Shown here piece after piece: positions 2,560-48,016 of a stretch of 64,000 nt of DNA (its first letter is position 1; every line of letters starts with the position of its first letter). The stretch lies in the IMG/VR virus record IMGVR_UViG_3300013121_000046. One strand, 5' to 3'. A program made the translations under genes and the position numbers. Under the pieces are notes generated by a model. That model made no database searches. It was not told the DNA's origin and was given only the letters and a program-made list of their open reading frames with translations. This stretch comes from a virus (taxonomy: Duplodnaviria > Caudoviricetes).

Positions 2560-3498
2560 CTATTTCAAAGAGTTACGCAACGCTAAATCCCACTCCCGTC
2601 TTATTTTAATACTCTGCATCTCTAATCGAGAACACATCTCCTCTAGCTTACTACGATCTCCAGTAACCTCTCCATAGTACTCCGGCCTATCCGTAACCCC
2701 TAGCAGATCCATCACTTGATAGTTTATCTGCATCTGCTCCCAAAACGAACGCAATTTTATCTTCTGCTGTGGCGTCTCACCAAAAAAGGCTAAACGCTCT
2801 GCGTCTGGAACTTCAGTACACTCTCTAGCAATATTTAGGATTACCTTACTGGGTAATCTAGAGATTCCCGGTAGCCCATCGGATACATCACTATCTAGAC
2901 TACGGTACACCAGCAAATTCCTACCCGTAACCCCCCACTTTTCCCGGACTTTTGCAAGATCAAAAAGACCATTCTTAGTCAAGCCCAAACAAAAAACTGT
3001 CTCCGAAACTAACTGATGAAAATCCTTATCAGTGGACACAATCAAAACTGTATCCGTCCCCACTCTTTCCCAACGAATCCAGGCAGCTATCTGAGTATCT
3101 GCCTCCACCTCAGCCGAGTACAAGGTGGGCAAAAACGAGGACATAGTTTCTCGCAAAAGTACCAGTCTTGGACCCCACGGAGGCTCATCAATTCTATCTT
3201 TTTTAGCTTCTCGATTGGCCTTATACCCAGCGAACAACTTTTTACCAACAGCCGGGACCCCATCCCAAGCTAAAATAATTCTCGACTGAGGATAGTTTCT
3301 AATCAGATTCAAAACGCCAGAGATAAAGCCAAACTCTAAACCCGAAGGTTCCCCGGAGGAAGTTCTCAACTGTTTATGGGACCACCAATACCTATGGGCC
3401 AAGTTATTAGCATCTACCAATACAACTTGAGGATCAAACACTAGGCTTCCTTTTTCCTTCGGGGAATCTTTTTCACCCATCGACTGTCCAAGCAACAT
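2560..3498 (-). CDS. 5'-3' exonuclease (Pol I N-terminal / flap endonuclease type)
   Basis: VLVDANNLAHR, LAWDG, YKANR, EADT, STDKDFHQL, SDVSDGLPGI motifs. Confidence 0.9.
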   Translation of the reverse strand: MLLGQSMGEKDSPKEKGSLVFDPQVVLVDANNLAHRYWWSHKQLRTSSGEPSGLEFGFISGVLNLIRNYPQSRIILAWDGVPAVGKKLFAGYKANREAKKDRIDEPPWGPRLVLLRETMSSFLPTLYSAEVEADTQIAAWIRWERVGTDTVLIVSTDKDFHQLVSETVFCLGLTKNGLFDLAKVREKWGVTGRNLLVYRSLDSDVSDGLPGISRLPSKVILNIARECTEVPDAERLAFFGETPQQKIKLRSFWEQMQINYQVMDLLGVTDRPEYYGEVTGDRSKLEEMCSRLEMQSIKIRREWDLALRNSLK

Positions 3499-3944
3499 TC
3501 CATCTCTCCTAAACCTAGAAAGACTCGCAAGACTACGAAGTCCTCAGCAAAACTAAGAATCTTCCCATGATTTCCCCGTAAATCCCCTTGAGTTACTTTA
3601 ACTCTGTCACCCACCTTAAAACTTGGACCAACCTCAATTACGGCTCTTATCTGGAGGATATCATCCTCAGTAACTACTGAATACCTAGAAGCGGATACCT
3701 TCAAAATACTCTTAAAAACCTCTGTATCTTCTAATTTATTGATACTTAGCTCAGGGTTAACCTTAATAAAAAAATACTCAGAATACGGGGAGGGATATTT
3801 ACCATGCTTATCTTCAATGACCCCATAAAAATACTCAAAGTCTTTAACCTCCAGTATTCGACGAGCCTCCTTAACTATATCTTTTTCAGACATAGTTTTT
3901 TCAGCCCAAGGGGTTAACTGTACGACCCAGTACGACACGATCAA
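3441..3944 (-). CDS. NusG-like transcription elongation/antitermination factor
   Basis: N-terminal YWVVQL..EYFFIK (NGN-like) and C-terminal KOW FKVGDRVKVTQGDLRGNHGKI. Confidence 0.75.
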   Translation of the reverse strand: MIVSYWVVQLTPWAEKTMSEKDIVKEARRILEVKDFEYFYGVIEDKHGKYPSPYSEYFFIKVNPELSINKLEDTEVFKSILKVSASRYSVVTEDDILQIRAVIEVGPSFKVGDRVKVTQGDLRGNHGKILSFAEDFVVLRVFLGLGEMECCLDSRWVKKIPRRKKEA

Positions 3945-4957
3945 TCTTCCCCTGATAAGAATCGAGCCACCCTGGCGGGATCTTTCCCCATATCATTCAC
4001 CAAAGTCTTCATGTCTACAGATCGAAATCGTTTAGGTACACCCTGTCGCTTTTCCCCTACAGCATTATTCAGTCCCGCCCCAAGCCTAGTCTGAACGAAA
4101 CCTAAAGCCGCTTGTAGGTCCAGCATACTTATGATTTTTAATGGGGTGGCTAATAACCATTCAGCAACAGCAGAAACTCGACTCCCATACTTATCTAACA
4201 AAAGCCCTAGGGTGGCTTTTTCTACGAATTGGCAACCAACACTAACAAGATGTGCTTGAAGAATTACCGTATGTATTAAAGTCCAAAATTCCTCCGGAGT
4301 CCTACCTAACGTATCAAGACCTTCCCCAATGTATGATACTCTTGTAGTACCCATTTCTAGGAGAAATTGTGTTACTGTCTGAAGTTCCCCCCCAAGAATA
4401 TTGTCAACCCCTCCTGGGTCATCCTTAATTAGATTATACTTTAATATCCAGGAAGCCAATTCTCGTAAGTTACCCGCACATCCTAGCAGAAATTTTTCCC
4501 TAACTTCCTTCGGAATCTCTGGGTATCTAGTTAAGTACTCAGCTACCTCCGAATTACTCAGAGGTAAACATGAAACCAATAGGCTATATAACCCTAGGGT
4601 CTCCGGCAAAGCCTCTGCCGAAGTTCCAGTAATAAAAACCCAGGGCCTTTGTATCTGCTGTATCTGTTCTTTTTTAGAGAGTAGATGAAAATTCTCCACC
4701 CAGACTGGCTCTTTTGGATCGCAACTAATTAACTGATAAGCTTGTATAGGCTCTACTGTGGTATATCCAACCAATCGTAAAACCTCAGCACACAGCATAC
4801 TTTTACCGACTCCCGGAGGACCCACAAAAAACCATTTATATTTAGAAATAGTCCCTTGCGCCTTAGCTCCGGAAATCAACTTCTTAGCCCATGATTGACC
4901 GATGATATTTGATAATTCTGCTAAGTTACTCATACCCATTATTCCTTGGCAAAACAC
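3941..4957 (-). CDS. AAA+ ATPase, clamp-loader (DnaX/RFC)-like
   Basis: IIGQ start motif, Walker A GPPGVGKS, degenerate Walker B VENFHLLS, CAGNLRE sensor-2-like motif. Confidence 0.7.
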   Translation of the reverse strand: MFCQGIMGMSNLAELSNIIGQSWAKKLISGAKAQGTISKYKWFFVGPPGVGKSMLCAEVLRLVGYTTVEPIQAYQLISCDPKEPVWVENFHLLSKKEQIQQIQRPWVFITGTSAEALPETLGLYSLLVSCLPLSNSEVAEYLTRYPEIPKEVREKFLLGCAGNLRELASWILKYNLIKDDPGGVDNILGGELQTVTQFLLEMGTTRVSYIGEGLDTLGRTPEEFWTLIHTVILQAHLVSVGCQFVEKATLGLLLDKYGSRVSAVAEWLLATPLKIISMLDLQAALGFVQTRLGAGLNNAVGEKRQGVPKRFRSVDMKTLVNDMGKDPARVARFLSGED

Positions 4958-7722: not shown

Positions 7723-10119
7723 CTAAATATCCTTAATACTCACTCGCTCATAATTAGGCTGTCTAGCTTCATCCAGATAAATAGCCTCATCGGAAATAAT
7801 TCCATGAGACTTACTGAAAACAGCTAGTCTCTGGGCTGGCCACCCCATTGCTCCTAACTCCTGACGGGCATACACATTGTAACTTTCCGTACTACCATTA
7901 GCTAAAACCACTCTTCGATTGATATCAAATTTAGCCATAGTGTTGTGACAAACAAACCCATTTCCGATAAAGGTCTCGGTTTCAGGCTGAGAAAAGTCCA
8001 TCACGTCACTCTCGTGATGAGTAATTTCCTTAACTCGATCATAAGTGTGGGGACCACACTGGGTTTTTTTTCTTCCTCGTGTGAGAGTCAGAATCCCACG
8101 ATCATTATAATCAGCCCGACATTTTTCAAGCTCCTGCTGAAGCAACAGATGCTTAATTCCCGCCCCAAATAGGCTTTGAGTTTTATCGAGACTAGATTTA
8201 GATATTCGGACAATCCAGGAATCGTTTTTGGCTCGAATAGTATAACCTTTTTGTGGTCCTTCTCTCAAAATATTGTGGGACCCAATCCTCCGTTTCCTAC
8301 TACGATATGAAAGAATCCCCAACCTTCGTAAAACCTGTTGAGTCTGCTCGGCTAGAATGCTTGAGTTAGTACTTAAAGTTGGATAACCCTGTAGCACGTA
8401 ACCATCCCCCCGGAAGAGCCCGCGAAGAAAGGCTCGATTAATAGGTTCAGTCCCTTGTAAAACTGCCCAGGGGATGTTCTTATTTGCTGCACCACTCTGA
8501 AGACCCAGAGTCTCATTCATAAATTTAACCAAGTCCTTCGAGTACGCCCAAAACACGGTCACTTTCTCACAGTTATTAACGATCCGAGATCCATAACGGA
8601 TGCTTAACCTCTTAAGCAGTTCAGTGACATGGGATAAGTCGTCTTCGTGAACAGCAAGATTAATCCCGTTAAATTTACCATTACTAGTAGTATAGTTCCC
8701 ATCAGCTACCCACCAACCGAGGAATTCCGCCCAGTCCTCGGTAAGTCTTACCGGAAGAGGTTGTGGCCTATTGCTGACATACAATCTACGACTCTGATTA
8801 CTGTACGAAATATGATTAAGCAAAGGATCTTCAATAGGCCAAGTCGTCCCTAGCTGAATCACCACACAATCCCGAGGAGTTATCTGATCTAATCTTCTCC
8901 ATTCATATTGACTAACCTTACGCCAAGTAGGTCGTAGTACCTTATCTCGAACACTTTTCTCATCCCCAAAAGTGGTGATAACTCGTACCCGATGATTTGG
9001 AGTACCTTCCAACGCATATCCCATATTAGTTTTAATACGGATAGTAGGAACTACCGCACCATGATGAAAAGTTTGGGAAGCTCTTCGTGGCACATCATCA
9101 GTTACTAGAAGTTCGTTGGAATCACGGAATCGCTCTGAATGCCCGGCAAAATCACTAATTGGACGCAAACCTGAAACAGCACTTTCAATCATGGTATTCG
9201 GCAAAACGCAGTGAAAGTGACCGATCCATAAGTAATCCCAAGGGACTGGAATGCAATCTATCCAACCCCAGGCCTTTTTTGCTGCCCCATACCAAGGGAA
9301 GCCGGCAAATCCTCCGCGAATCTCCTGACCATGTACCAACAAATTTCCCCACGAGTACACTTGATCCACACCATACCAGTCCTCGGATCTATCTCCAGGT
9401 AGATCGAAACTAACCCGTTTACGGTCTTGGGAAGCTAACCTACTCTGCACCTGAAGACGCATTACCTCATAGGCAACGGAATCCCAGTTGGTTCTGGGGT
9501 TTGCTCCAGTGTGTTTAGAGCCATTTCTACCATGATTTCCGGGGACAGCTAACACCCTAACACTTCCGAAATTTGCTAAAAAAGTTAAGATAAGACTAGC
9601 TAAAGCTTCAGGGACAACCTTACAAGCTTGATCGAAAACCGAAGAGTCAATCAAGTGTGCCTGGGTAGGAAAAATACCCTCACCTTCAACCATATCTCCG
9701 CCAAGGTACACCCGTATGTCCTCTACCCTAGCTCCATTTCGTCTAGTCTCTGCAATCTTAAGTACTTTCTTAGCTATACGGTTAAGCCTCTCTACAGCAA
9801 TAGCAGAATCATACTGGGGAGTAACTTTCCCAATATGAATATCACTTAAATGCAATACAAAGACTTCCTCATCACACCCCTTTTTCTTTACAGTTTGTCT
9901 GGGAGGAAAGACAGTTAATTTAGGTTTATTCTTTGCCATCAAGTCAGTGATAGCACGAACAATTATTTCTTCCCCAGAGACGGCTTTTTTCACTTGCTTC
10001 TTTAGAGAATCAATCTCCCCTCGAAGCAAACGAATTGTTGCATCCTTTTCCAATACCGCTCGCAACTCTTCCTGATCCATAAAATTTTTAGTTATGTCCT
10101 TACTCTTGGCCCTAGTCAT
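7723..10119 (-). CDS. calcineurin-like metallophosphoesterase interrupted by an intein
   Basis: LSDIHIG, GGDMVEG, VPGNHGR, VHG, GHFH motifs; intein after GHFH. Confidence 0.85.
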   Translation of the reverse strand: MTRAKSKDITKNFMDQEELRAVLEKDATIRLLRGEIDSLKKQVKKAVSGEEIIVRAITDLMAKNKPKLTVFPPRQTVKKKGCDEEVFVLHLSDIHIGKVTPQYDSAIAVERLNRIAKKVLKIAETRRNGARVEDIRVYLGGDMVEGEGIFPTQAHLIDSSVFDQACKVVPEALASLILTFLANFGSVRVLAVPGNHGRNGSKHTGANPRTNWDSVAYEVMRLQVQSRLASQDRKRVSFDLPGDRSEDWYGVDQVYSWGNLLVHGQEIRGGFAGFPWYGAAKKAWGWIDCIPVPWDYLWIGHFHCVLPNTMIESAVSGLRPISDFAGHSERFRDSNELLVTDDVPRRASQTFHHGAVVPTIRIKTNMGYALEGTPNHRVRVITTFGDEKSVRDKVLRPTWRKVSQYEWRRLDQITPRDCVVIQLGTTWPIEDPLLNHISYSNQSRRLYVSNRPQPLPVRLTEDWAEFLGWWVADGNYTTSNGKFNGINLAVHEDDLSHVTELLKRLSIRYGSRIVNNCEKVTVFWAYSKDLVKFMNETLGLQSGAANKNIPWAVLQGTEPINRAFLRGLFRGDGYVLQGYPTLSTNSSILAEQTQQVLRRLGILSYRSRKRRIGSHNILREGPQKGYTIRAKNDSWIVRISKSSLDKTQSLFGAGIKHLLLQQELEKCRADYNDRGILTLTRGRKKTQCGPHTYDRVKEITHHESDVMDFSQPETETFIGNGFVCHNTMAKFDINRRVVLANGSTESYNVYARQELGAMGWPAQRLAVFSKSHGIISDEAIYLDEARQPNYERVSIKDI
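7942..9210 (-). mobile_element. intein with LAGLIDADG homing endonuclease (423 aa)
   Basis: N-junction H|CVLPNTMI, block B GTPNHRV, LAGLIDADG motifs AEFLGWWVADG and AFLRGLFRGDG, C-junction FIGNGFVCHN|T. Confidence 0.92.
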
Positions 10120-30148: not shown

Positions 30149-30545
30149 CACCCTAGTCACTAACATTCTCTACATTAGTTAGCTTAGCCAGCAGGCGACT
30201 AAACCTTCCCCATCTCTCGTTCTCAACAAATGGTTTCAACCATCTGACTCCCATCAAGGAATGCGACTGCAAGACTCTCACCGTTCGTTGGCTCAGGACA
30301 GATTGCGTTCACTCCTGACCTACGAAAGGAGTCAGCCACATTCCTTCCCAGAGCCCAATAAACAGTGTTGATGACTTTGACCCACACCTCCCCTTGATAG
30401 GAAAAAATATCTCCTGCCTTCACGTCTCGAAAGTAGCACGGCGTCATTTTTTATACCTCCAAACATCATTGCCCAATACCAACTCTCACCCTAATCACTA
30501 ACATTCTCTACATTAGTTAGCTTAGCCAGCAGGCGACTAAACCTT
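30149..30545. repeat. 59-bp direct repeat pair (30149..30207 and 30487..30545)
   Basis: CACCCTA(G/A)TCACTAACATTCTCTACATTAGTTAGCTTAGCCAGCAGGCGACTAAACCTT, one mismatch. Confidence 0.9.
30223..30447 (-). CDS. hypothetical protein between direct repeats
   Basis: 74-aa ORF with GGAGG SD. Confidence 0.6.
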   Translation of the reverse strand: MTPCYFRDVKAGDIFSYQGEVWVKVINTVYWALGRNVADSFRRSGVNAICPEPTNGESLAVAFLDGSQMVETIC

Positions 30546-30820
30546 TCTACTGACGACTTAGACAGATGGCAGGCATTCAAACAGACACCATTAAAAAGAT
30601 TTGCCCCGCATTTTGGGCAACAATCTTTCTCAAAGCCAATTCGCTCCATAAGCTCTGCCTCTCTTCCACACTTTGGACAGGATAAAATACTTTCCTCTTC
30701 TGATATCTCTCCTCCACAACCCCAACACTTGAACGTATGTGGCATACTACATTCCTTAGATTTAGGATACCAACCGCAACTGACCGGGCGCTTCGACGAC
30801 CGAAAAATTGCTCCTAACAC
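30491..30820 (-). CDS. double zinc-ribbon protein (likely start MPHTFKC)
   Basis: CWGCG, CPKCG, CPKCG motifs. Confidence 0.6.
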   Translation of the reverse strand: MLGAIFRSSKRPVSCGWYPKSKECSMPHTFKCWGCGGEISEEESILSCPKCGREAELMERIGFEKDCCPKCGANLFNGVCLNACHLSKSSVERFSRLLAKLTNVENVSD

Positions 30821-30829
30821 CTTTATTTA

Positions 30830-32395
30830 CTAGCCAGCCAGTGCGTCGGCCGCGTGAGCCAGTCTGATAAGGCATTTTTCACGACCCAAAATCGCCAGGC
30901 AGTCCCACAAACCGGCCCCCACCCCGCGTCCCGTGGTGGCAACTCGCACCGGATGAACCAGGTCGCCCAGTCTGAAGCCTTGCGCCTCACAAAAGGCGTG
31001 CGCCGCAGCCTCAAGCTGGGCGGACTCAAAAGGATCAACCGCCGACAATCGCTCGGCAAAACTGCGGAGCAATTCGCCCGTGCCGGGGGGCTTCAACCGT
31101 TTCTCCACCGCGCTCGGGTCATACGCGAGGGGCTCGACCAAAAACGGCTCGGCATAGGCCAGAATGTCGCCCGCCACCTTGAGCCGGTCGCCCGCCGCCT
31201 CGATCACGCGGGCGAGCGTCGTCAGCGCCGCAGTCCTCGCGGCGGGTTCGGCCGGCAGCCAACCGGCTCGTTCGACATAGGGCTGCATCCGGGCGAGCTT
31301 CTCGTCGCTCGAAAGCCGCCGCATATATTCTTCCTGGAACGACCAGAGCTTCTTGGGATCGAAGCTGGCCGGCGACTGGTTCACACGTTCCAACGAAAAA
31401 TGTGCGATCATTTCCTGGCGCGAGAGATACTCCGTCTTGTCGTCGAGCGACCAGCCCAAGAGCATCAGGTAGTTGATAATCGCGTCGGGCAAATAGCCCA
31501 CCTGCTCGTAGAAATCGACGATCACGGGGTTAAACGTGTCAGCCGTGGTTTCGAGCCCCAGCAGCTTGGCAATCGCCAGCCCGTGCTCGTTCACCTGGGC
31601 AAAGTCGCGGTTCTTCAGATACTTGTCGAGCTTGCGCTTGCTGAGCTTGTTCTTCGAGCCCGGCTCGGCCACATAGGGCAAGTGGGCATACACGGGAAGC
31701 GGGTAACCGAGCCCCTGGGCGATGAACACCTGCCGGGGCGTGTTCGACAGGTGCTCTTCGGCCCGGATCACATGGGTGATCTTGAAATCGTAGTCATCGA
31801 CCACGCTGGCCAAGTGGTAAAGGCAGGTGCCGTCGGCCCGTTGAATCACATGGTCTTGCTCGCGGGCCCACTCAAACTCCACGCGCCCGCGAACCTGGTC
31901 GTCGAGCACCAGGCTTCCCTCGCGGGGAATCTTGAGTCGCACCACGCCGGCCCGACCTTGGGCCTCGAACCGGCGGCAGGCGTCCGAGGTTTCGGCCATC
32001 CACCGTCGGCTGTAGAGGAAGGGACGCTTCTCGGCCTGGGCTGCCTCGCGCTCGGCCTGGATCTCTTCGGGCGTGGCGTAGTCTCGATAGGCCTGCCCCG
32101 CTTCCAGCAGCCGGGTAACCGCAGCTTGGTAGCGGTCGAGCCGTTGCGATTGAAAGTACGGGGCATAAGGTCCACCCACCTCGGGTCCCTCGTCCCAATC
32201 GAGACCCAGCCAGCGAAAGCCGTGCAGGATGGGGGCCAGGGCCGCCTCGACGTTGCGCACCTGGTCGGTATCGTCGATCCGCAGCAAGAACTGCCCGCCC
32301 TGACGCCGGGCATAAAGCCAGTTGAAGAGCGCGGTGCGGACCCCGCCGATGTGCAGATAACCGGTCGGGCTGGGGGCGAAACGGGTGCGAACCAC
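30830..32395 (-). CDS. gltX: glutamyl-tRNA synthetase (host-like, GC-rich)
   Basis: VRTRFAPSPTGYLHIGG, RIDDTD, ITHVIRAEEHLSNT, KLSKR, C-terminal anticodon-binding domain; GC-rich codon usage unlike the flanks. Confidence 0.96.
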   Translation of the reverse strand: MVRTRFAPSPTGYLHIGGVRTALFNWLYARRQGGQFLLRIDDTDQVRNVEAALAPILHGFRWLGLDWDEGPEVGGPYAPYFQSQRLDRYQAAVTRLLEAGQAYRDYATPEEIQAEREAAQAEKRPFLYSRRWMAETSDACRRFEAQGRAGVVRLKIPREGSLVLDDQVRGRVEFEWAREQDHVIQRADGTCLYHLASVVDDYDFKITHVIRAEEHLSNTPRQVFIAQGLGYPLPVYAHLPYVAEPGSKNKLSKRKLDKYLKNRDFAQVNEHGLAIAKLLGLETTADTFNPVIVDFYEQVGYLPDAIINYLMLLGWSLDDKTEYLSRQEMIAHFSLERVNQSPASFDPKKLWSFQEEYMRRLSSDEKLARMQPYVERAGWLPAEPAARTAALTTLARVIEAAGDRLKVAGDILAYAEPFLVEPLAYDPSAVEKRLKPPGTGELLRSFAERLSAVDPFESAQLEAAAHAFCEAQGFRLGDLVHPVRVATTGRGVGAGLWDCLAILGREKCLIRLAHAADALAG

Positions 32396-32592
32396 AAGAA
32401 TTCCTTATCATCCCTGATTTTCAGGTTTACGTTCTTTCTTCCAAACTCGAATCTTTCTCTCGTCCTTAAGTTCATAACATTCAAAATAGTTATGAACCCT
32501 CCAGTGCTTTTTCCCAAGGTGATCCTGACGAATCCCACGGCTGCAATTCCGTCGCCCACAAGCACAGGCCTCACTCTCAGGAATCGGCATAG

Positions 32593-32931
32593 CTAATCCC
32601 CTCCTAGAACCAACTGGAGCAAGACTTCATTCAGATTTTCCACCAAAACTTGATCCCGCCTAGCAAGGAACCTTATGTCCGGAAAATCGTTTCTGAAAGC
32701 AAAATCCGTCAAATCCATGTAGATTAGCGAATACGTATCATCTGGGCTCAGCCGCACCTGAAAGCGATAGTGTTTCCTAGGACGATCTGGGTGGGTAAGC
32801 CGAAAAGAAAGAGAGTCATCAGAAAAAACAAAATCTCGTGCCTTCAGAACTTGTAAACTCTGAAGGCACTGCTCCCAAATCGTGCGAGAGACCTGAGGGA
32901 GATCATCCGGAACTCTGACGTTAGCCGCCAT
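32593..32931 (-). CDS. conserved phage hypothetical protein
   Basis: FQVRLSPDDTYSL...VENLNEVL pattern; downstream of promoter motif at 32990. Confidence 0.6.
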   Translation of the reverse strand: MAANVRVPDDLPQVSRTIWEQCLQSLQVLKARDFVFSDDSLSFRLTHPDRPRKHYRFQVRLSPDDTYSLIYMDLTDFAFRNDFPDIRFLARRDQVLVENLNEVLLQLVLGGD

Positions 32932-45429: not shown

Positions 45430-45768
45430 TCACTCATCCTCTCCCCTCTTTTTTTGTTCTCGAATAAGTTGCTCTAGAACTTTGCGAGGACAGTCGGCGG
45501 CATGATTTTCTTCTTCAAAACGAACCCACTCACAACAGCAGGCACGGCACGCATAGCCAGTAATACGTGCATGTGAATACGTATTACTGTCCCTGTCCAC
45601 GCACGAGTACTCGGTTTCAACATTGTCATCCTCGACCAGCAGCCTCTCTACAACATCAATAATTTTTTCTTTCCAACTCTCCAACTCAACCAATCTCGCC
45701 GAGCCTAAGTGGGTGTTGTCACTCACTGCTTGACCCCCACTTCCTCGACAATCACACTCAAATCCCAC
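45430..45768 (-). CDS. Cys-containing hypothetical protein
   Basis: CRACC...HAADC; likely start VSDNTH. Confidence 0.5.
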   Translation of the reverse strand: MGFECDCRGSGGQAVSDNTHLGSARLVELESWKEKIIDVVERLLVEDDNVETEYSCVDRDSNTYSHARITGYACRACCCEWVRFEEENHAADCPRKVLEQLIREQKKRGEDE

Positions 45769-46379
45769 CCCCGAGTCTTAGCCATTTGCCGCAGGTTGGA
45801 CAACATGGCCATCCGCTCGGCCTCGAATGGACCGCCTTCTTCGCGGATAAGCTGCTCGACCGCATCAATCGCAACGTCCCAACACCCCCCGCGAATTCGC
45901 CAGCCTCGCGACGTGTCCCACCACAAAAATACCCGATAGCCGTTTGAGAGGATGCCGCCATCCAGAATGCGGTTGTCGCCGCAATCCGCGCCGGCGAAGT
46001 TGGCTTGCCTGAAATCAGCACGCGAGATATAAGCCCTCGCGAGCGCGGCCAGCGTGAGATTAGCCATCGTGAGATTAGTCATCGTGAGATTAGCCATCAT
46101 GAGGCCAGCCCCCGCTAGATCGGCCCCTGTGAGATTAGCCCCTGCTAGATTGGCCCCCGCGAGATTGGCCCCTGCTAGATCAGCCCCTGCTAGATCCGCC
46201 CCCGCGAGATTGGCCCACCTGAGATCGGCACCCGCGAGATCGGCCGCGCGTAGGCTTATTCCCGCCACTATCGCCTTCCTTATCGCCGCTCCCAGGGCCT
46301 CGGATCGGCTTAGCCCTTTGGGTACGTGGCAGGAGTACAGGACGGCTGCGGTGCGCCTGTGCAAGATTTTGACATTCAT
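45723..46379 (-). CDS. pentapeptide repeat protein
   Basis: (ADLAG/ANLAG/ANLTM)n; start MNVKIL overlaps the upstream stop (ATGA). Confidence 0.88.
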   Translation of the reverse strand: MNVKILHRRTAAVLYSCHVPKGLSRSEALGAAIRKAIVAGISLRAADLAGADLRWANLAGADLAGADLAGANLAGANLAGANLTGADLAGAGLMMANLTMTNLTMANLTLAALARAYISRADFRQANFAGADCGDNRILDGGILSNGYRVFLWWDTSRGWRIRGGCWDVAIDAVEQLIREEGGPFEAERMAMLSNLRQMAKTRGWDLSVIVEEVGVKQ

Positions 46380-47230
46380 GGCATCCTTCCGAAGCTCGCG
46401 GGAAACTCTCGCCATTCCCGGCCGTCGAGCATGGCACCGGCCAATTTCTTGCCAACCCGACTGCTCACCGTGCCGTCCTGCCACAGAAAATTATGGCCAC
46501 AGCCTGGATGCTCGCCGCGTTCCGTCGGAACCCACTCGCCCCATTGCTTGAAAAAGAACGGGACGTGCCACTCGCATTGATCGCGAATAGACTTCACCCA
46601 CGCGGGGTGCATCGGGCGCGCATTGGGCCCGCTCTCGCCGCCTACAATGATCCACTGGACGATTTCGGAGAGTTCCCAACTCGGCGACCAAATTCGATCG
46701 AGCGGGCCGAGGAGCGGCTCCGCCGACAGAAACAGGCCGCCGAAGCTGTGCCTCACCGCCTGCGCCTGCGACAGTCTCGTCAGGTACTCTGCGCTCTCGA
46801 CGCTCACGCCGAGCCACGCATTGGGCCACCACTCGCGAGTCGAGGCCAGGCTGACAAGCCGCTCGACGTTCTCCGGCCGCTTGGTCAACAGCAGCCAAAC
46901 GAGGTGCGGCGTCCGTTCGATCAGTCCGAACAGCCGCCGTCTCGGCACCTCCAAGTCGGGTCGATCCTCGAACACATCGGCCAGGCTCGCGCAAAACACC
47001 AGCCGTCGCTCTCCGGCCAGGTTGGCCGCCCGGTCCCACACCAACGGTTGCCGCCAATAACTCTCAGCCGCTACGACTCGCGTTCCGTCGGGCCCCCACT
47101 CACCGAGCACACGGGGATTGCGCTTGCTCAGCGTCTCCGCGTAGCAATGTTGGCACCCCGGCGAGACCTTTGCGCAGCCACGCCAGGGGTTGAACGTGTA
47201 ATCGGCCCACTCGATTTTTGTTTCAGCCAC
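46376..47230 (-). CDS. phage Gp37/Gp68 (DUF5131) family protein
   Basis: TKIEWADYTFNPWRGCAKVSPGCQHCYAE, LLTKRP, SAEPLLG, VGGESG, FFKQWG. Confidence 0.92.
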   Translation of the reverse strand: MAETKIEWADYTFNPWRGCAKVSPGCQHCYAETLSKRNPRVLGEWGPDGTRVVAAESYWRQPLVWDRAANLAGERRLVFCASLADVFEDRPDLEVPRRRLFGLIERTPHLVWLLLTKRPENVERLVSLASTREWWPNAWLGVSVESAEYLTRLSQAQAVRHSFGGLFLSAEPLLGPLDRIWSPSWELSEIVQWIIVGGESGPNARPMHPAWVKSIRDQCEWHVPFFFKQWGEWVPTERGEHPGCGHNFLWQDGTVSSRVGKKLAGAMLDGREWREFPASFGRMP

Positions 47231-47645
47231 AACCGATCTCCTTGGGCCACTCCGTAACCACCTCGGCTGCAACGTCCAAATACCGCAGTATGTCGTCTAC
47301 CGTACGCCTCGGATGGTCGTGCCAATAACTAAATCTCCCCTTAATTCCCATCACCCTATTGGCTCTGGGGATGATCGTCTCCCTTAATATCCGCTCGACT
47401 CGCTCGCGGTTGTCCAGCAGCAGAAGAGAATGACGGTCGATTGCCAGAAATAACGCCCCCTCGACAGTCCACCGAACGGCGGAATGGTCAATTACGGGGT
47501 GTACCACCCGCCAGTTTTTGTCTACTGCGTAACGCGGATAGCCGGAGCCACGCCGGTTTCGTGTCGAGTACATTCGACACCAGCCCGTCTCAAGGGTTAA
47601 TTTCGCATCCTCGATGATGCTCAGCAGGGCCTTGTTCATGTTCAT
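47223..47645 (-). CDS. DUF6197-like phage protein
   Basis: GWCR...WTVEGAL...WHDHPRRTVDDIL; same pattern as 52880..53299. Confidence 0.6.
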   Translation of the reverse strand: MNMNKALLSIIEDAKLTLETGWCRMYSTRNRRGSGYPRYAVDKNWRVVHPVIDHSAVRWTVEGALFLAIDRHSLLLLDNRERVERILRETIIPRANRVMGIKGRFSYWHDHPRRTVDDILRYLDVAAEVVTEWPKEIGCG

Positions 47646-47647
47646 CG

Positions 47648-48016
47648 CTAAACAGCCCCCATCACATAGTAGTCGATACCAACCACCGACTGCCGCCACG
47701 GTGGGACAGACCGAACCGCCGCGATCCGCAAGGCCATTTCGCGATCAAGCCACTCAATCACATGATCCCCGCTTGATGTTACCACATAGACCGGCGAGCC
47801 GGCCTCGCGGAGCTTGCTATCCGTCGCCCATTGGGGCTTGGTAGGCACGTACCCTGGCTGCTTGGCCTCGATCCAGAACGTAAGACCGTGCGGTGGGACA
47901 ATCACCATCAGGTCAGGGAGCCCGGCCCTTTGGGGCAGTACCAGCCATCCGTGGTCGCGCATTTTTTTGGACAACGCCGCGACGATTGTTGATTTTTTGG
48001 GTTCTGTTTTTTTCAT
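47648..48016 (-). CDS. VRR-NUC (PD-(D/E)xK) nuclease
   Basis: KKSTIV...GLPDL...FWIEAK.PG..PTKPQ. Confidence 0.8.
   Translation of the reverse strand: MKKTEPKKSTIVAALSKKMRDHGWLVLPQRAGLPDLMVIVPPHGLTFWIEAKQPGYVPTKPQWATDSKLREAGSPVYVVTSSGDHVIEWLDREMALRIAAVRSVPPWRQSVVGIDYYVMGAV

What the first reader, a model, noticed from the sequence alone, without database searches (positions are those of the whole stretch)
30830..32395. Intact, unameliorated host glutamyl-tRNA synthetase placed precisely into a phage operon
Seen: full-length GltX with strongly GC-rich codons. The compositional shift begins at the GTG start (phage-type AAGGAA SD upstream) and ends at or just past the stop, in the same orientation as neighbours, with no IS or integrase and no tRNA-Glu in the window. 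Established: HipA-family kinases inactivate GltX by phosphorylating the Ser of the KLSKR loop, and extra GltX suppresses this. Inference: a very recent capture that may titrate HipA-type abortive defence or sustain Glu/Gln-tRNA supply; also a strong host marker.
Basis: partly seen in the sequence, partly recalled or inferred. Interest (0 to 1): 0.7.

Follow-up and report, generated by a model that had tools for sequence, protein, structure and literature searches.

The report
Host glutamyl-tRNA synthetase captured by jumbo phage
A giant uncultured phage carries a complete, still host-flavoured copy of a planctomycete glutamyl-tRNA synthetase gene, slotted exactly between two phage genes. It is a clean new example of a known habit of giant phages and a good clue to the host, but nothing here supports an anti-defence role.

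Summary
Window 30830-32395 (-) encodes an intact 521-aa bacterial GluRS. It scores 456 bits on TIGR00464 (cut-off 290), has HIGG and KLSKR, and keeps all 84 strongly conserved columns. Its GC3 is 0.785 against 0.425 +/- 0.058 for the phage ORFs (z 6.2). Its codon usage correlates +0.77 to +0.88 with Pirellulales gltX and -0.49 with phage genes.

The composition steps fall at the CDS ends. The start codon sits on the donors' own start codon (GTG where they have ATG). An 8-mer, TAAGGAAT, forms the ribosome-binding site both of gltX and of the next phage gene, so it brackets the insert.

The protein nests in an uncultured Pirellulales clade, sister (support 99) to a planctomycete MAG copy. That copy is only 80% aa and 76% nt identical, so no donor is identified. 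"Recent" rests on composition alone.

Huge phages are already known to carry aaRS genes, GluRS among them (PMC7162821), and this scan has found phage gltX on other DNA before.

The HipA idea has no specific support. The target Ser is unchanged. HipA-family kinases occur in 12 of 101 Pirellulales genomes, and the one in the nearest genome is HipT-like. Chimera and prophage-in-gltX readings are very unlikely.

Verdict: a new member of a known kind, of modest interest.

The parts
30830..32395 (-). gltX: intact bacterial-type glutamate-tRNA ligase, 521 aa, GTG start, TAG stop; GC 0.637, GC3 0.785
32342..32353 (-). HIGH signature (HIGG, residues 15-18) of the class I catalytic domain
31634..31648 (-). 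KMSKS-type loop KLSKR (residues 250-254). Its Ser is the counterpart of the E. coli GltX Ser239 that HipA phosphorylates. It is unchanged from the bacterial homologs.
30905..30937 (-). C-terminal motif TTGRGVGAGLW (residues 487-497). Among the nine sequences displayed it is shared only with the nearest planctomycete homolog (L001/P0002), so the 3' end has the same origin as the rest of the gene.
32400..32407 (-). Upstream copy of the 8-mer TAAGGAAT. It is the Shine-Dalgarno site of gltX and directly follows the TGA stop of the preceding phage ORF. It is followed by TCTT and then the GTG start.
30751..30758 (-). Downstream copy of TAAGGAAT. It is the Shine-Dalgarno site of the next phage gene (ATG at 30745). 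With the upstream copy it brackets the insert as a direct repeat.
30759..30829 (-). 71-nt spacer between the gltX stop and the downstream repeat (GC 0.46). An AT-rich start is followed by a 33-nt GC-rich core. Its origin (donor 3' flank or phage) is unresolved.
32408..32590 (-). Upstream phage-like 60-aa ORF (GC3 0.41, AGGAGG ribosome-binding site). Its stop codon abuts the upstream repeat.
30491..30745 (-). Downstream phage gene: an 84-aa Cys-rich zinc-ribbon-like orphan protein, for which the public gene call uses the same start.
32838..32869 (-). Terminator-like hairpin (14 pairs, then a T run) about 440 nt upstream of gltX. It probably marks the upstream edge of the transcription unit that holds gltX.

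Best explanation
A gltX gene from the chromosome of a GC-rich Pirellulales (Planctomycetota) bacterium, very probably the host, was joined by illegitimate recombination into an intergenic ribosome-binding site of a jumbo phage of about 236 kb.

The insert runs from at most 4 nt before the donor's start codon to at most 71 nt after its stop. It sits between two copies of the 8-mer TAAGGAAT. As a result gltX and the next phage gene each have a Shine-Dalgarno site, and gltX is read as part of the phage operon.

The capture is recent relative to the phage's own compositional equilibrium, because the gene's codon usage is still that of the donor clade.

The enzyme is intact. It most likely works as an ordinary GluRS that adds Glu-tRNA charging capacity in the infected cell. 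It is probably non-discriminating, charging both tRNA-Glu and tRNA-Gln. This matches the role proposed for other aaRS genes of huge phages, which come with phage tRNAs.

Shown here: the identity, intactness, composition, junction anatomy and phylogenetic placement of the gene. Inferred: the donor being the host, the recombination mechanism, expression, and the benefit to the phage.
For: Identity and intactness:
- TIGR00464 scores 456 bits against a cut-off of 290, and both Pfam domains are present.
- All 84 columns that are at least 95% conserved among 83 homologs are kept.

Host-type composition:
- GC3 is 0.785. Nine Pirellulales gltX genes range from 0.69 to 0.86. Phage ORFs average 0.425, sd 0.058.
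- RSCU correlates +0.77 to +0.88 with Pirellulales gltX and -0.49 with the phage genes.

Junctions:
- The GC step falls at both CDS ends.
- The phage reads GTGGTTCGCACC where the donors read ATGGTTCG... The 80 nt upstream is phage-like in the phage and unrelated and GC-rich in nine bacterial loci.
- TAAGGAAT occurs 3 times in 64 kb. The 2 minus-strand copies are the ribosome-binding sites of gltX and of the next gene.

Placement:
- The protein is sister to L001/P0002 (SH-aLRT 99) inside an uncultured Pirellulales clade. Branch lengths are 0.25 (phage) and 0.18 (L001).
- L001 lies in ordinary planctomycete chromosomal context.

Phage setting:
- The contig is 236,349 bp.
- The window holds 64 kb of one-strand genes, with a sigma factor, primase, exonucleases, a DNA methyltransferase, an HNH endonuclease and 7 tRNAs.
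- The phage tRNAs read AUA, AGA, UUA and AAA, codons that are rare in the L001 genome sample.

Precedent:
- Huge phages carry up to 15 aaRS genes that are related to but distinct from their hosts'. A GluRS subtree is shown as the example (PMC7162821).
- GltX also occurs in other large phage contigs, at only 26-42% identity to this one, which indicates independent captures.

Non-discriminating type:
- The three nearest Pirellulales MAGs lack GlnRS and have GatB.
Against: - No donor is identified. The best match is 76% nt, and third positions are 56% identical, i.e. largely randomised.
- There is no second assembly of either junction and no related phage with or without the gene. Retention under selection inside a phage lineage is therefore not shown.
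- If the capture is very recent, intactness says nothing about usefulness.
- No tRNA-Glu or tRNA-Gln lies in the window.
- Glu is only about 1.4 times more frequent in phage proteins than in a small host-like sample. Lys, Asn and Ile shift much more. So there is no specific reason why GluRS should be limiting.
- The 8-mer repeat is a post hoc observation. AAGGA-type ribosome-binding sites are common in this phage (25 of 124 ORFs).
- Read coverage could not be checked.
Confidence: 0.6

Rival explanations
1. Neutral passenger. The gene is a fresh accidental capture that gives the phage no benefit. It is intact only because too little time has passed for decay.
For: - Composition is essentially unameliorated.
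- No relative of the phage is available to show retention.
- A second GC-rich island at 45.7-48.0 kb shows that this phage takes up foreign GC-rich DNA repeatedly.
- No cognate tRNA lies in the window.
Against: - The insert is gene-precise, co-oriented, has a well-spaced ribosome-binding site and leaves the next gene's site intact. A random fragment would rarely do all of this.
- gltX has been captured independently by several other large phage lineages.
Confidence: 0.2
2. Counter-defence decoy. Extra GltX titrates a HipA-family kinase that would otherwise phosphorylate the host GluRS, raise uncharged tRNA-Glu and abort infection.
For: - HipA phosphorylates Ser239 of E. coli GltX. An abortive-infection role for Hip kinases has been proposed but not tested (PMC8262856).
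- HipA_C kinases exist in 12 of 101 Pirellulales genomes.
- The genome with the nearest GltX carries an HTH-plus-kinase pair.
Against: - The KLSKR serine and its surroundings are identical to the bacterial homologs, so there is no sign of resistance or adaptation.
- The 5 GTDB genomes first tested have no HipA_C match.
- The kinase in the nearest genome is HipT-like (E 1e-46 to Legionella HipT, 2e-17 to E. coli O127 HipT; the latter is reported to target TrpS). Its match to the GltX-targeting E. coli HipA is only E 1e-8.
- Nothing in the locus links it to defence.
Confidence: 0.07
3. Old acquisition kept host-like. The gene has been in the phage lineage for a long time, but its sequence is repeatedly refreshed by homologous recombination with the host's gltX during infection, or held by codon selection.
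For: - Only the 3' terminal 100 codons show a GC3 drop (0.68 against 0.81). This could happen if the edges escape conversion.
- The phage branch is somewhat longer than its sister branch (0.25 against 0.18; 79 against 50 inferred changes).
Against: - The 5' edge shows no drop (GC3 0.82 in the first 40 codons).
- No other phage gene outside the two islands exceeds GC3 of about 0.58, so codon selection towards host usage is not evident.
- No related phages are available to show age.
Confidence: 0.07
4. Artefact or misreading. Either an assembly chimera placed a bacterial fragment in a phage contig, or this is a prophage integrated into the host's gltX with one gene end supplied by the phage.
For: - There is a single assembly, and no independent copy of either junction in IMG/VR or JGI metagenomes.
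- Read coverage could not be examined.
Against: - The GC-rich block is exactly one CDS, flanked on both sides by about 30 kb of co-oriented phage genes.
- The sequence upstream of the bacterial gltX genes shares no k-mer-length match with the phage junction.
- The start codon is GTG where every nearby donor has ATG. The gene has a phage-type ribosome-binding site.
- The C-terminus carries a motif shared only with the nearest planctomycete homolog, so it is not phage-supplied.
Confidence: 0.04

Closest known systems
Aminoacyl-tRNA synthetase genes of huge phages (Al-Shayeb et al. 2020, PMC7162821; GluRS subtree in Extended Data Fig. 7a)
   Same: - A full-length aaRS in a phage genome above 200 kb.
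- It is related to but distinct from the host clade's enzyme and accompanied by phage tRNAs.
- Its phylogeny can be used for host prediction.
   Different: - Those GluRS examples sit with Bacteroidetes hosts, whereas this one nests in Pirellulales.
- It is only 26-42% identical to GltX in other phage records.
- It is still compositionally foreign (z 6.2), so it looks like an early stage of capture, not an established phage gene.
Chromosomal GltX of uncultured Pirellulales, nearest P0002/L001 (MAG GCA_964399535.1, genome handle G012)
   Same: - 80% aa identity over 99% of the length, with the same start position.
- Similar length (521 against 525 aa) and the same motifs.
- GC3 is 0.785 against 0.816, and RSCU correlates at r = 0.87.
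   Different: - It sits in a phage operon with a phage-type Shine-Dalgarno site, which the bacterial loci lack.
- It starts with GTG instead of ATG.
- It is 24% diverged at nucleotide level.
- GC3 is lower in the last 100 codons.
Host gltX captured by a rumen giant phage
   Same: A host-derived GluRS gene inserted into a large phage with readable junctions and reuse of a neighbouring phage gene's translation signals (that report's claims were not re-tested here).
   Different: - In that case a promoter, leader and first 8 codons were duplicated, and sister phages show the empty site.
- Here only an 8-nt ribosome-binding-site motif is repeated, and no sister phage exists in the collections searched.
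GluQRS (YadB, TIGR03838), the truncated GluRS paralog
   Same: It shares the catalytic domain (208 bits).
   Different: - The score is below the family cut-off (276.7).
- This protein also has the complete anticodon-binding domain.
- It is therefore not GluQRS.

Membership tests
Bacterial glutamate-tRNA ligase (GltX, TIGR00464) | Whole-protein score above the curated equivalog cut-off | tested here: met
   456.2 bits against a cut-off of 289.95
Bacterial glutamate-tRNA ligase (GltX, TIGR00464) | Class I catalytic domain with HIGH and KMSKS-type signatures | tested here: met
   PF00749 at E 1.9e-90; HIGG at residues 15-18 and KLSKR at 250-254
Bacterial glutamate-tRNA ligase (GltX, TIGR00464) | Bacterial-type C-terminal anticodon-binding domain | tested here: met
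   PF19269 at E 1.3e-27, residues 372-515
Bacterial glutamate-tRNA ligase (GltX, TIGR00464) | Family-wide conserved residues retained | tested here: met
   0 deviations at the 84 columns that are at least 95% conserved among 83 homologs
Bacterial glutamate-tRNA ligase (GltX, TIGR00464) | Aminoacylates tRNA-Glu (and tRNA-Gln if non-discriminating) | not testable with these tools
   Only indirect evidence: the nearest Pirellulales MAGs lack GlnRS and have GatB. The discriminating residue was not examined, because no referenced T. thermophilus sequence was available to align.
aaRS genes of huge/jumbo phages (PMC7162821) | Encoded on a phage genome above 200 kb | tested here: met
   The contig is 236,349 bp. 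The window has phage-type content: a sigma factor, primase, exonucleases, a DNA methyltransferase, an HNH endonuclease, 7 tRNAs and one-strand gene order. Virion genes lie outside the window and were not checked here.
aaRS genes of huge/jumbo phages (PMC7162821) | Related to, but distinct from, the aaRS of the host clade | tested here: met
   Nested in Pirellulales and sister to L001 with support 99, at 80% aa identity
aaRS genes of huge/jumbo phages (PMC7162821) | Phage also encodes the cognate tRNA | tested here: inconclusive
   No tRNA-Glu or tRNA-Gln among the 7 tRNAs of the window. The other roughly 172 kb of the genome is not held.
Anti-HipA decoy or counter-defence (hypothetical class) | Host lineage carries a GltX-targeting HipA kinase | tested here: inconclusive
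   HipA_C was found in 0 of the 5 GTDB genomes first tested and in 12 of 101 Pirellulales genomes. It is present in G012, the genome with the nearest GltX, but that kinase is HipT-like. The true host is unknown.
Anti-HipA decoy or counter-defence (hypothetical class) | Target loop altered, or other adaptation that sets the phage copy apart from the host enzyme | tested here: not met
   The KLSKR loop and its flanks are identical to the bacterial homologs

The most novel reading that the evidence does not exclude
The captured GltX is kept because it blunts a host abortive-infection response that works through GluRS. In this reading a Hip-family kinase phosphorylates the KLSKR serine, uncharged tRNA-Glu accumulates, and the stringent response follows. 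The phage would win simply by flooding the cell with extra substrate enzyme. That would make aaRS genes of giant phages a class of counter-defence genes and not just translation boosters.
Probability: 0.07. Interest if true: 0.7.

Novelty: new member of a known kind. Interest (0 to 1): 0.3.

Why it matters
The gene gives a concrete, testable host assignment for an orphan 236-kb phage that has no relatives in public data: an uncultured Pirellulales lineage in Planctomycetota. That is a group for which earlier notes of this scan say few phages are described.

It is also an unusually legible snapshot of how a giant phage acquires a translation gene. The insert is one gene long. It begins within 4 nt of the donor's start codon, is bracketed by an 8-nt ribosome-binding-site repeat, and has barely begun to drift towards phage composition.

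It does not change what is known about phage aaRS genes. The attractive HipA link remains speculation.

Tried and rejected
1. Independent copies of the junctions. Exact searches for the 5' junction and for the downstream repeat plus next-gene start found nothing in IMG/VR or JGI metagenomes. Neither chimera nor empty site could be tested this way.

2. Related phages.
- The flanking methyltransferase has no relative above 48% identity.
- The next gene is an orphan.
- The IMG/VR loci share no synteny.
- The presence/absence test is therefore impossible with these data.

3. Donor flank remnants. The 85 nt on each side of the gene match nothing in about 100 bacterial loci.

4. Mosaic gene. In the segment-wise identity comparison the same MAG is nearest in both variable C-terminal segments, and the catalytic domain is uniformly conserved. 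There is no sign of two donors.

5. AT-biased substitution on the phage branch.
- GC-to-AT changes number 41 on the phage branch against 23 on the sister branch.
- The ratio of GC-to-AT to AT-to-GC changes does not differ (Fisher p 0.63).
- This shows only a somewhat longer branch.

6. Using the second GC-rich island as a host clue. Its DUF5131 protein is at most 48% identical to proteins from many phyla, so it is uninformative.

7. Glu demand. Phage proteins have 6.7% Glu against 4.9% in a small host-like sample. This is too weak to explain why GluRS in particular was kept.

8. Prophage integrated into gltX with a phage-supplied 3' end (earlier notes e1-5778297 and e1-5778317). Rejected, because phage genes lie on both sides and the C-terminus shares a derived motif with the planctomycete sister.

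9. The whole genome is not held, so tRNA-Glu elsewhere in the phage could not be checked.

10. The discriminating versus non-discriminating residue was not examined, for lack of a referenced T. thermophilus sequence.
Full report
**1. What is there**

The minus-strand ORF 30830-32395 (GTG start, TAG stop) encodes a 521-aa protein. It has the class I Glu/Gln synthetase catalytic domain and the bacterial anticodon-binding domain. It scores 456 bits on the NCBIfam equivalog model for bacterial GluRS, against a cut-off of 290. It falls below the cut-offs for GluQRS, archaeal GluRS and GlnRS. HIGG (residues 15-18) and KLSKR (250-254) are present. At the 84 alignment columns that are at least 95% conserved among 83 homologs, it never deviates. 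The gene is intact.

**2. Composition**

- The gene has GC 0.637 and GC3 0.785.
- The window's other ORFs of at least 80 aa, leaving out the second island, have GC3 of 0.425 +/- 0.058, which gives z = 6.2.
- Its relative synonymous codon usage correlates +0.77 to +0.88 with nine Pirellulales gltX genes and -0.49 with the phage's own genes.
- In 150-nt windows the GC step falls at both ends of the CDS.
- Its GC3 lies inside the range of the nearest bacterial genes (0.69-0.86). Drift towards the phage value is therefore small. Taking 0.80 as donor and 0.42 as equilibrium, roughly 4% of the way has been covered. Over the donor range seen, the figure is under about a fifth (inference).
- The one visible trace is in the last 100 codons, with GC3 0.68 against 0.81 before them (p = 0.0065, chosen post hoc). 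None of 12 homologs shows such a drop.

**3. Junctions**

All nearby bacterial genes begin ATGGTTCG... The phage gene begins GTGGTTCGCACC at the same codon. The 80 nt upstream is GC-rich and unrelated in the bacteria, but AT-richer in the phage and carries an AAGGA Shine-Dalgarno site.

Reading 5' to 3' on the minus strand, the order is:
- the TGA stop of a phage-like 60-aa ORF,
- TAAGGAAT,
- TCTT,
- the GTG start of gltX, then the gene and its TAG stop,
- a 71-nt spacer,
- TAAGGAAT,
- GTAGT,
- the ATG of the next phage gene.

The public gene call for that next protein uses the same ATG. TAAGGAAT occurs only three times in the 64 kb, and the two minus-strand copies are these two. AAGGAA precedes only 8 of 124 ORFs.

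The simplest reading is that the fragment landed in the ribosome-binding site between the 60-aa ORF and the zinc-ribbon gene, and the 8-mer ended up on both sides. This could be a target duplication or a copied site. It is suggestive, not proven, because I noticed the repeat only after looking. The origin of the 71-nt spacer is unresolved. No integrase, transposase or IS lies in the flanking ORFs that I scanned. The nearest mobile-type gene is an HNH endonuclease 6.4 kb away.

**4. Where the gene came from**

In a search of 5.8 billion protein clusters, the named best matches (70-75% identical) are from Pirellulales or other Planctomycetota. One unnamed match reaches 80% (P0002). P0002 lies on a 246-kb contig of a planctomycete MAG among ordinary chromosomal genes.

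A maximum-likelihood tree of 91 sequences puts the phage protein as sister to that sequence (SH-aLRT 99), deep inside an uncultured Pirellulales clade. Terminal branches are 0.25 (phage) and 0.18. The signal for this pairing comes from the variable anticodon-binding half, where P0002 is the nearest in both segments. The catalytic half is 85-92% identical to everything in the clade. So there is no sign of a mosaic.

At nucleotide level the nearest gene is only 76% identical, and third positions are 56% identical, i.e. largely randomised. The true donor is therefore unsampled.

Because the gene's synonymous sites still look bacterial, most of the 20% protein divergence must have built up in the bacterial lineage before the capture (inference). 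"Recent" is justified relative to the phage's compositional equilibrium. "Very recent" in absolute terms is not shown.

**5. Is the setting a phage?**

- The contig is 236,349 bp.
- All ORFs of at least 150 aa in the window are on one strand, apart from antisense shadow ORFs inside the two GC-rich islands.
- Seven tRNAs are scattered among the genes.
- There are matches to a phage sigma factor, primase, an SbcD-like exonuclease carrying an intein, a 5'-3' exonuclease, a DNA methyltransferase and an HNH endonuclease.
- Earlier notes of this scan describe virion genes, recA and large paralog arrays elsewhere in the same genome. I did not re-test those.
- The phage tRNAs (Ile-UAU, Arg-UCU, Leu-UAA, Lys-UUU, Ser-UGA) read codons that are abundant in phage genes and nearly absent from the genes around L001. 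For example ATA is 304 against 5 and AGA 297 against 2. This fits a low-GC phage in a high-GC host.

**6. Artefact readings**

A chimera would have to insert exactly one bacterial CDS, in the right orientation, behind a phage ribosome-binding site, with phage DNA resuming afterwards. It would also need k-mer-length identity at both joins, and the bacterial flanks show none.

A prophage sitting inside the host's gltX is excluded. About 30 kb of phage genes lie on each side. The C-terminus also carries TTGRGVGAGLW, which among the nine sequences displayed is shared only with the planctomycete sister.

Read-level confirmation could not be done. No second assembly of either junction exists in IMG/VR or the JGI metagenomes.

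**7. What it probably does**

[quoted passage not shown] They are proposed to charge tRNAs during the takeover of translation, and a GluRS subtree is the published example (PMC7162821).

GltX also occurs in other large phage contigs, at only 26-42% identity to this one and far away in the tree. Different phage lineages have therefore taken the gene independently. This scan has reported several phage gltX genes on other DNA. Recurrent capture argues for a benefit.

The three nearest Pirellulales MAGs lack GlnRS but have GatB. The donor-type enzyme is therefore probably non-discriminating and would feed both Glu-tRNA and, through GatCAB, Gln-tRNA (inference).

My best reading is ordinary GluRS activity that adds charging capacity in the infected cell. 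I cannot show that this copy is used. There is no phage relative in which to see retention, no cognate tRNA in the window, and only a 1.4-fold higher Glu content in phage proteins. A neutral, fresh passenger remains a serious rival.

**8. The HipA idea**

It is established that E. coli HipA phosphorylates Ser239 of GltX. A role of Hip kinases in abortive infection has been proposed but not tested (PMC8262856).

Here the target loop is identical to the bacterial homologs. HipA_C kinases were found in none of the five GTDB genomes first tested, and in 12 of 101 Pirellulales genomes.

The genome that holds the nearest GltX (G012) does have an HTH protein followed by a HipA_C kinase. That kinase resembles Legionella HipT (E 1e-46) and E. 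coli O127 HipT (E 2e-17; reported to target TrpS) far more than E. coli HipA (E about 1e-8).

The idea is therefore not excluded, but nothing specific supports it.

**9. Verdict**

This is a new member of a known kind. It is noteworthy mainly as a host link for an orphan planctomycete-type jumbo phage and as a clean, early-stage example of gene capture.

Noticed in passing
window 45723-48016 (-): A second GC-rich island (GC 0.55-0.64, GC3 0.62-0.76) with four ORFs: a pentapeptide-repeat protein, DUF5131 (PHROG 2045), DUF6197 and a 122-aa ORF. The DUF5131 protein is at most 48% identical to proteins from many phyla. The island looks like a block taken from another, GC-richer phage or prophage, not from the host chromosome.
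   Followed up: partly
window 7723-10119 (-): An SbcD/Mre11-like exonuclease (PHROG 284) interrupted by an intein with a LAGLIDADG homing-endonuclease domain (residues about 347-726).
   Followed up: no
window 32838-32869 (-): A strong terminator-like hairpin (14 pairs plus a T run) lies inside the 5' part of the mechanically listed ORF 32593-32931. That ORF probably starts later or is not real, and a transcription unit boundary lies about 440 nt upstream of gltX.
   Followed up: no
L022, L024, L026, L028, L033, L035, L040; L019, L030 (tree): GltX of Vicinamibacterales/Vicinamibacteria (Acidobacteriota) forms one well-supported clade nested inside the planctomycete GltX radiation. Two 'WOR-3' MAG sequences sit among Thermoguttaceae. 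This suggests inter-phylum transfer of gltX or mis-binned contigs.
   Followed up: no
L036 (Thermoguttaceae MAG, match at 3001-4236): The open frame that holds the gltX match is 3060 nt long. Only residues 1-414 of the phage GltX align, at 72% identity. This is a possible fusion or frame artefact in that MAG.
   Followed up: no
L107 2745-4278 (+), genome G012: The planctomycete MAG with the nearest GltX carries an HTH_3 protein overlapping the start of a 470-aa HipA_C kinase. The kinase is most similar to Legionella HipT (E 1e-46). A eukaryote-type Ser/Thr kinase lies just upstream.
   Followed up: partly
window 17307-58042 (tRNAs); window-wide codon counts: The phage tRNAs (Ile-UAU, Arg-UCU, Leu-UAA, Lys-UUU, Ser-UGA, two CAU) match A/U-ending codons that are common in phage genes and almost absent from the host-like genome sample (ATA 304 against 5, AGA 297 against 2, TTA 456 against 10).
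   Followed up: partly
window 30854-32596 (+): A 580-aa antisense ORF spans gltX. It is the stop-poor shadow frame typical of GC-rich genes, not a gene.
   Followed up: no
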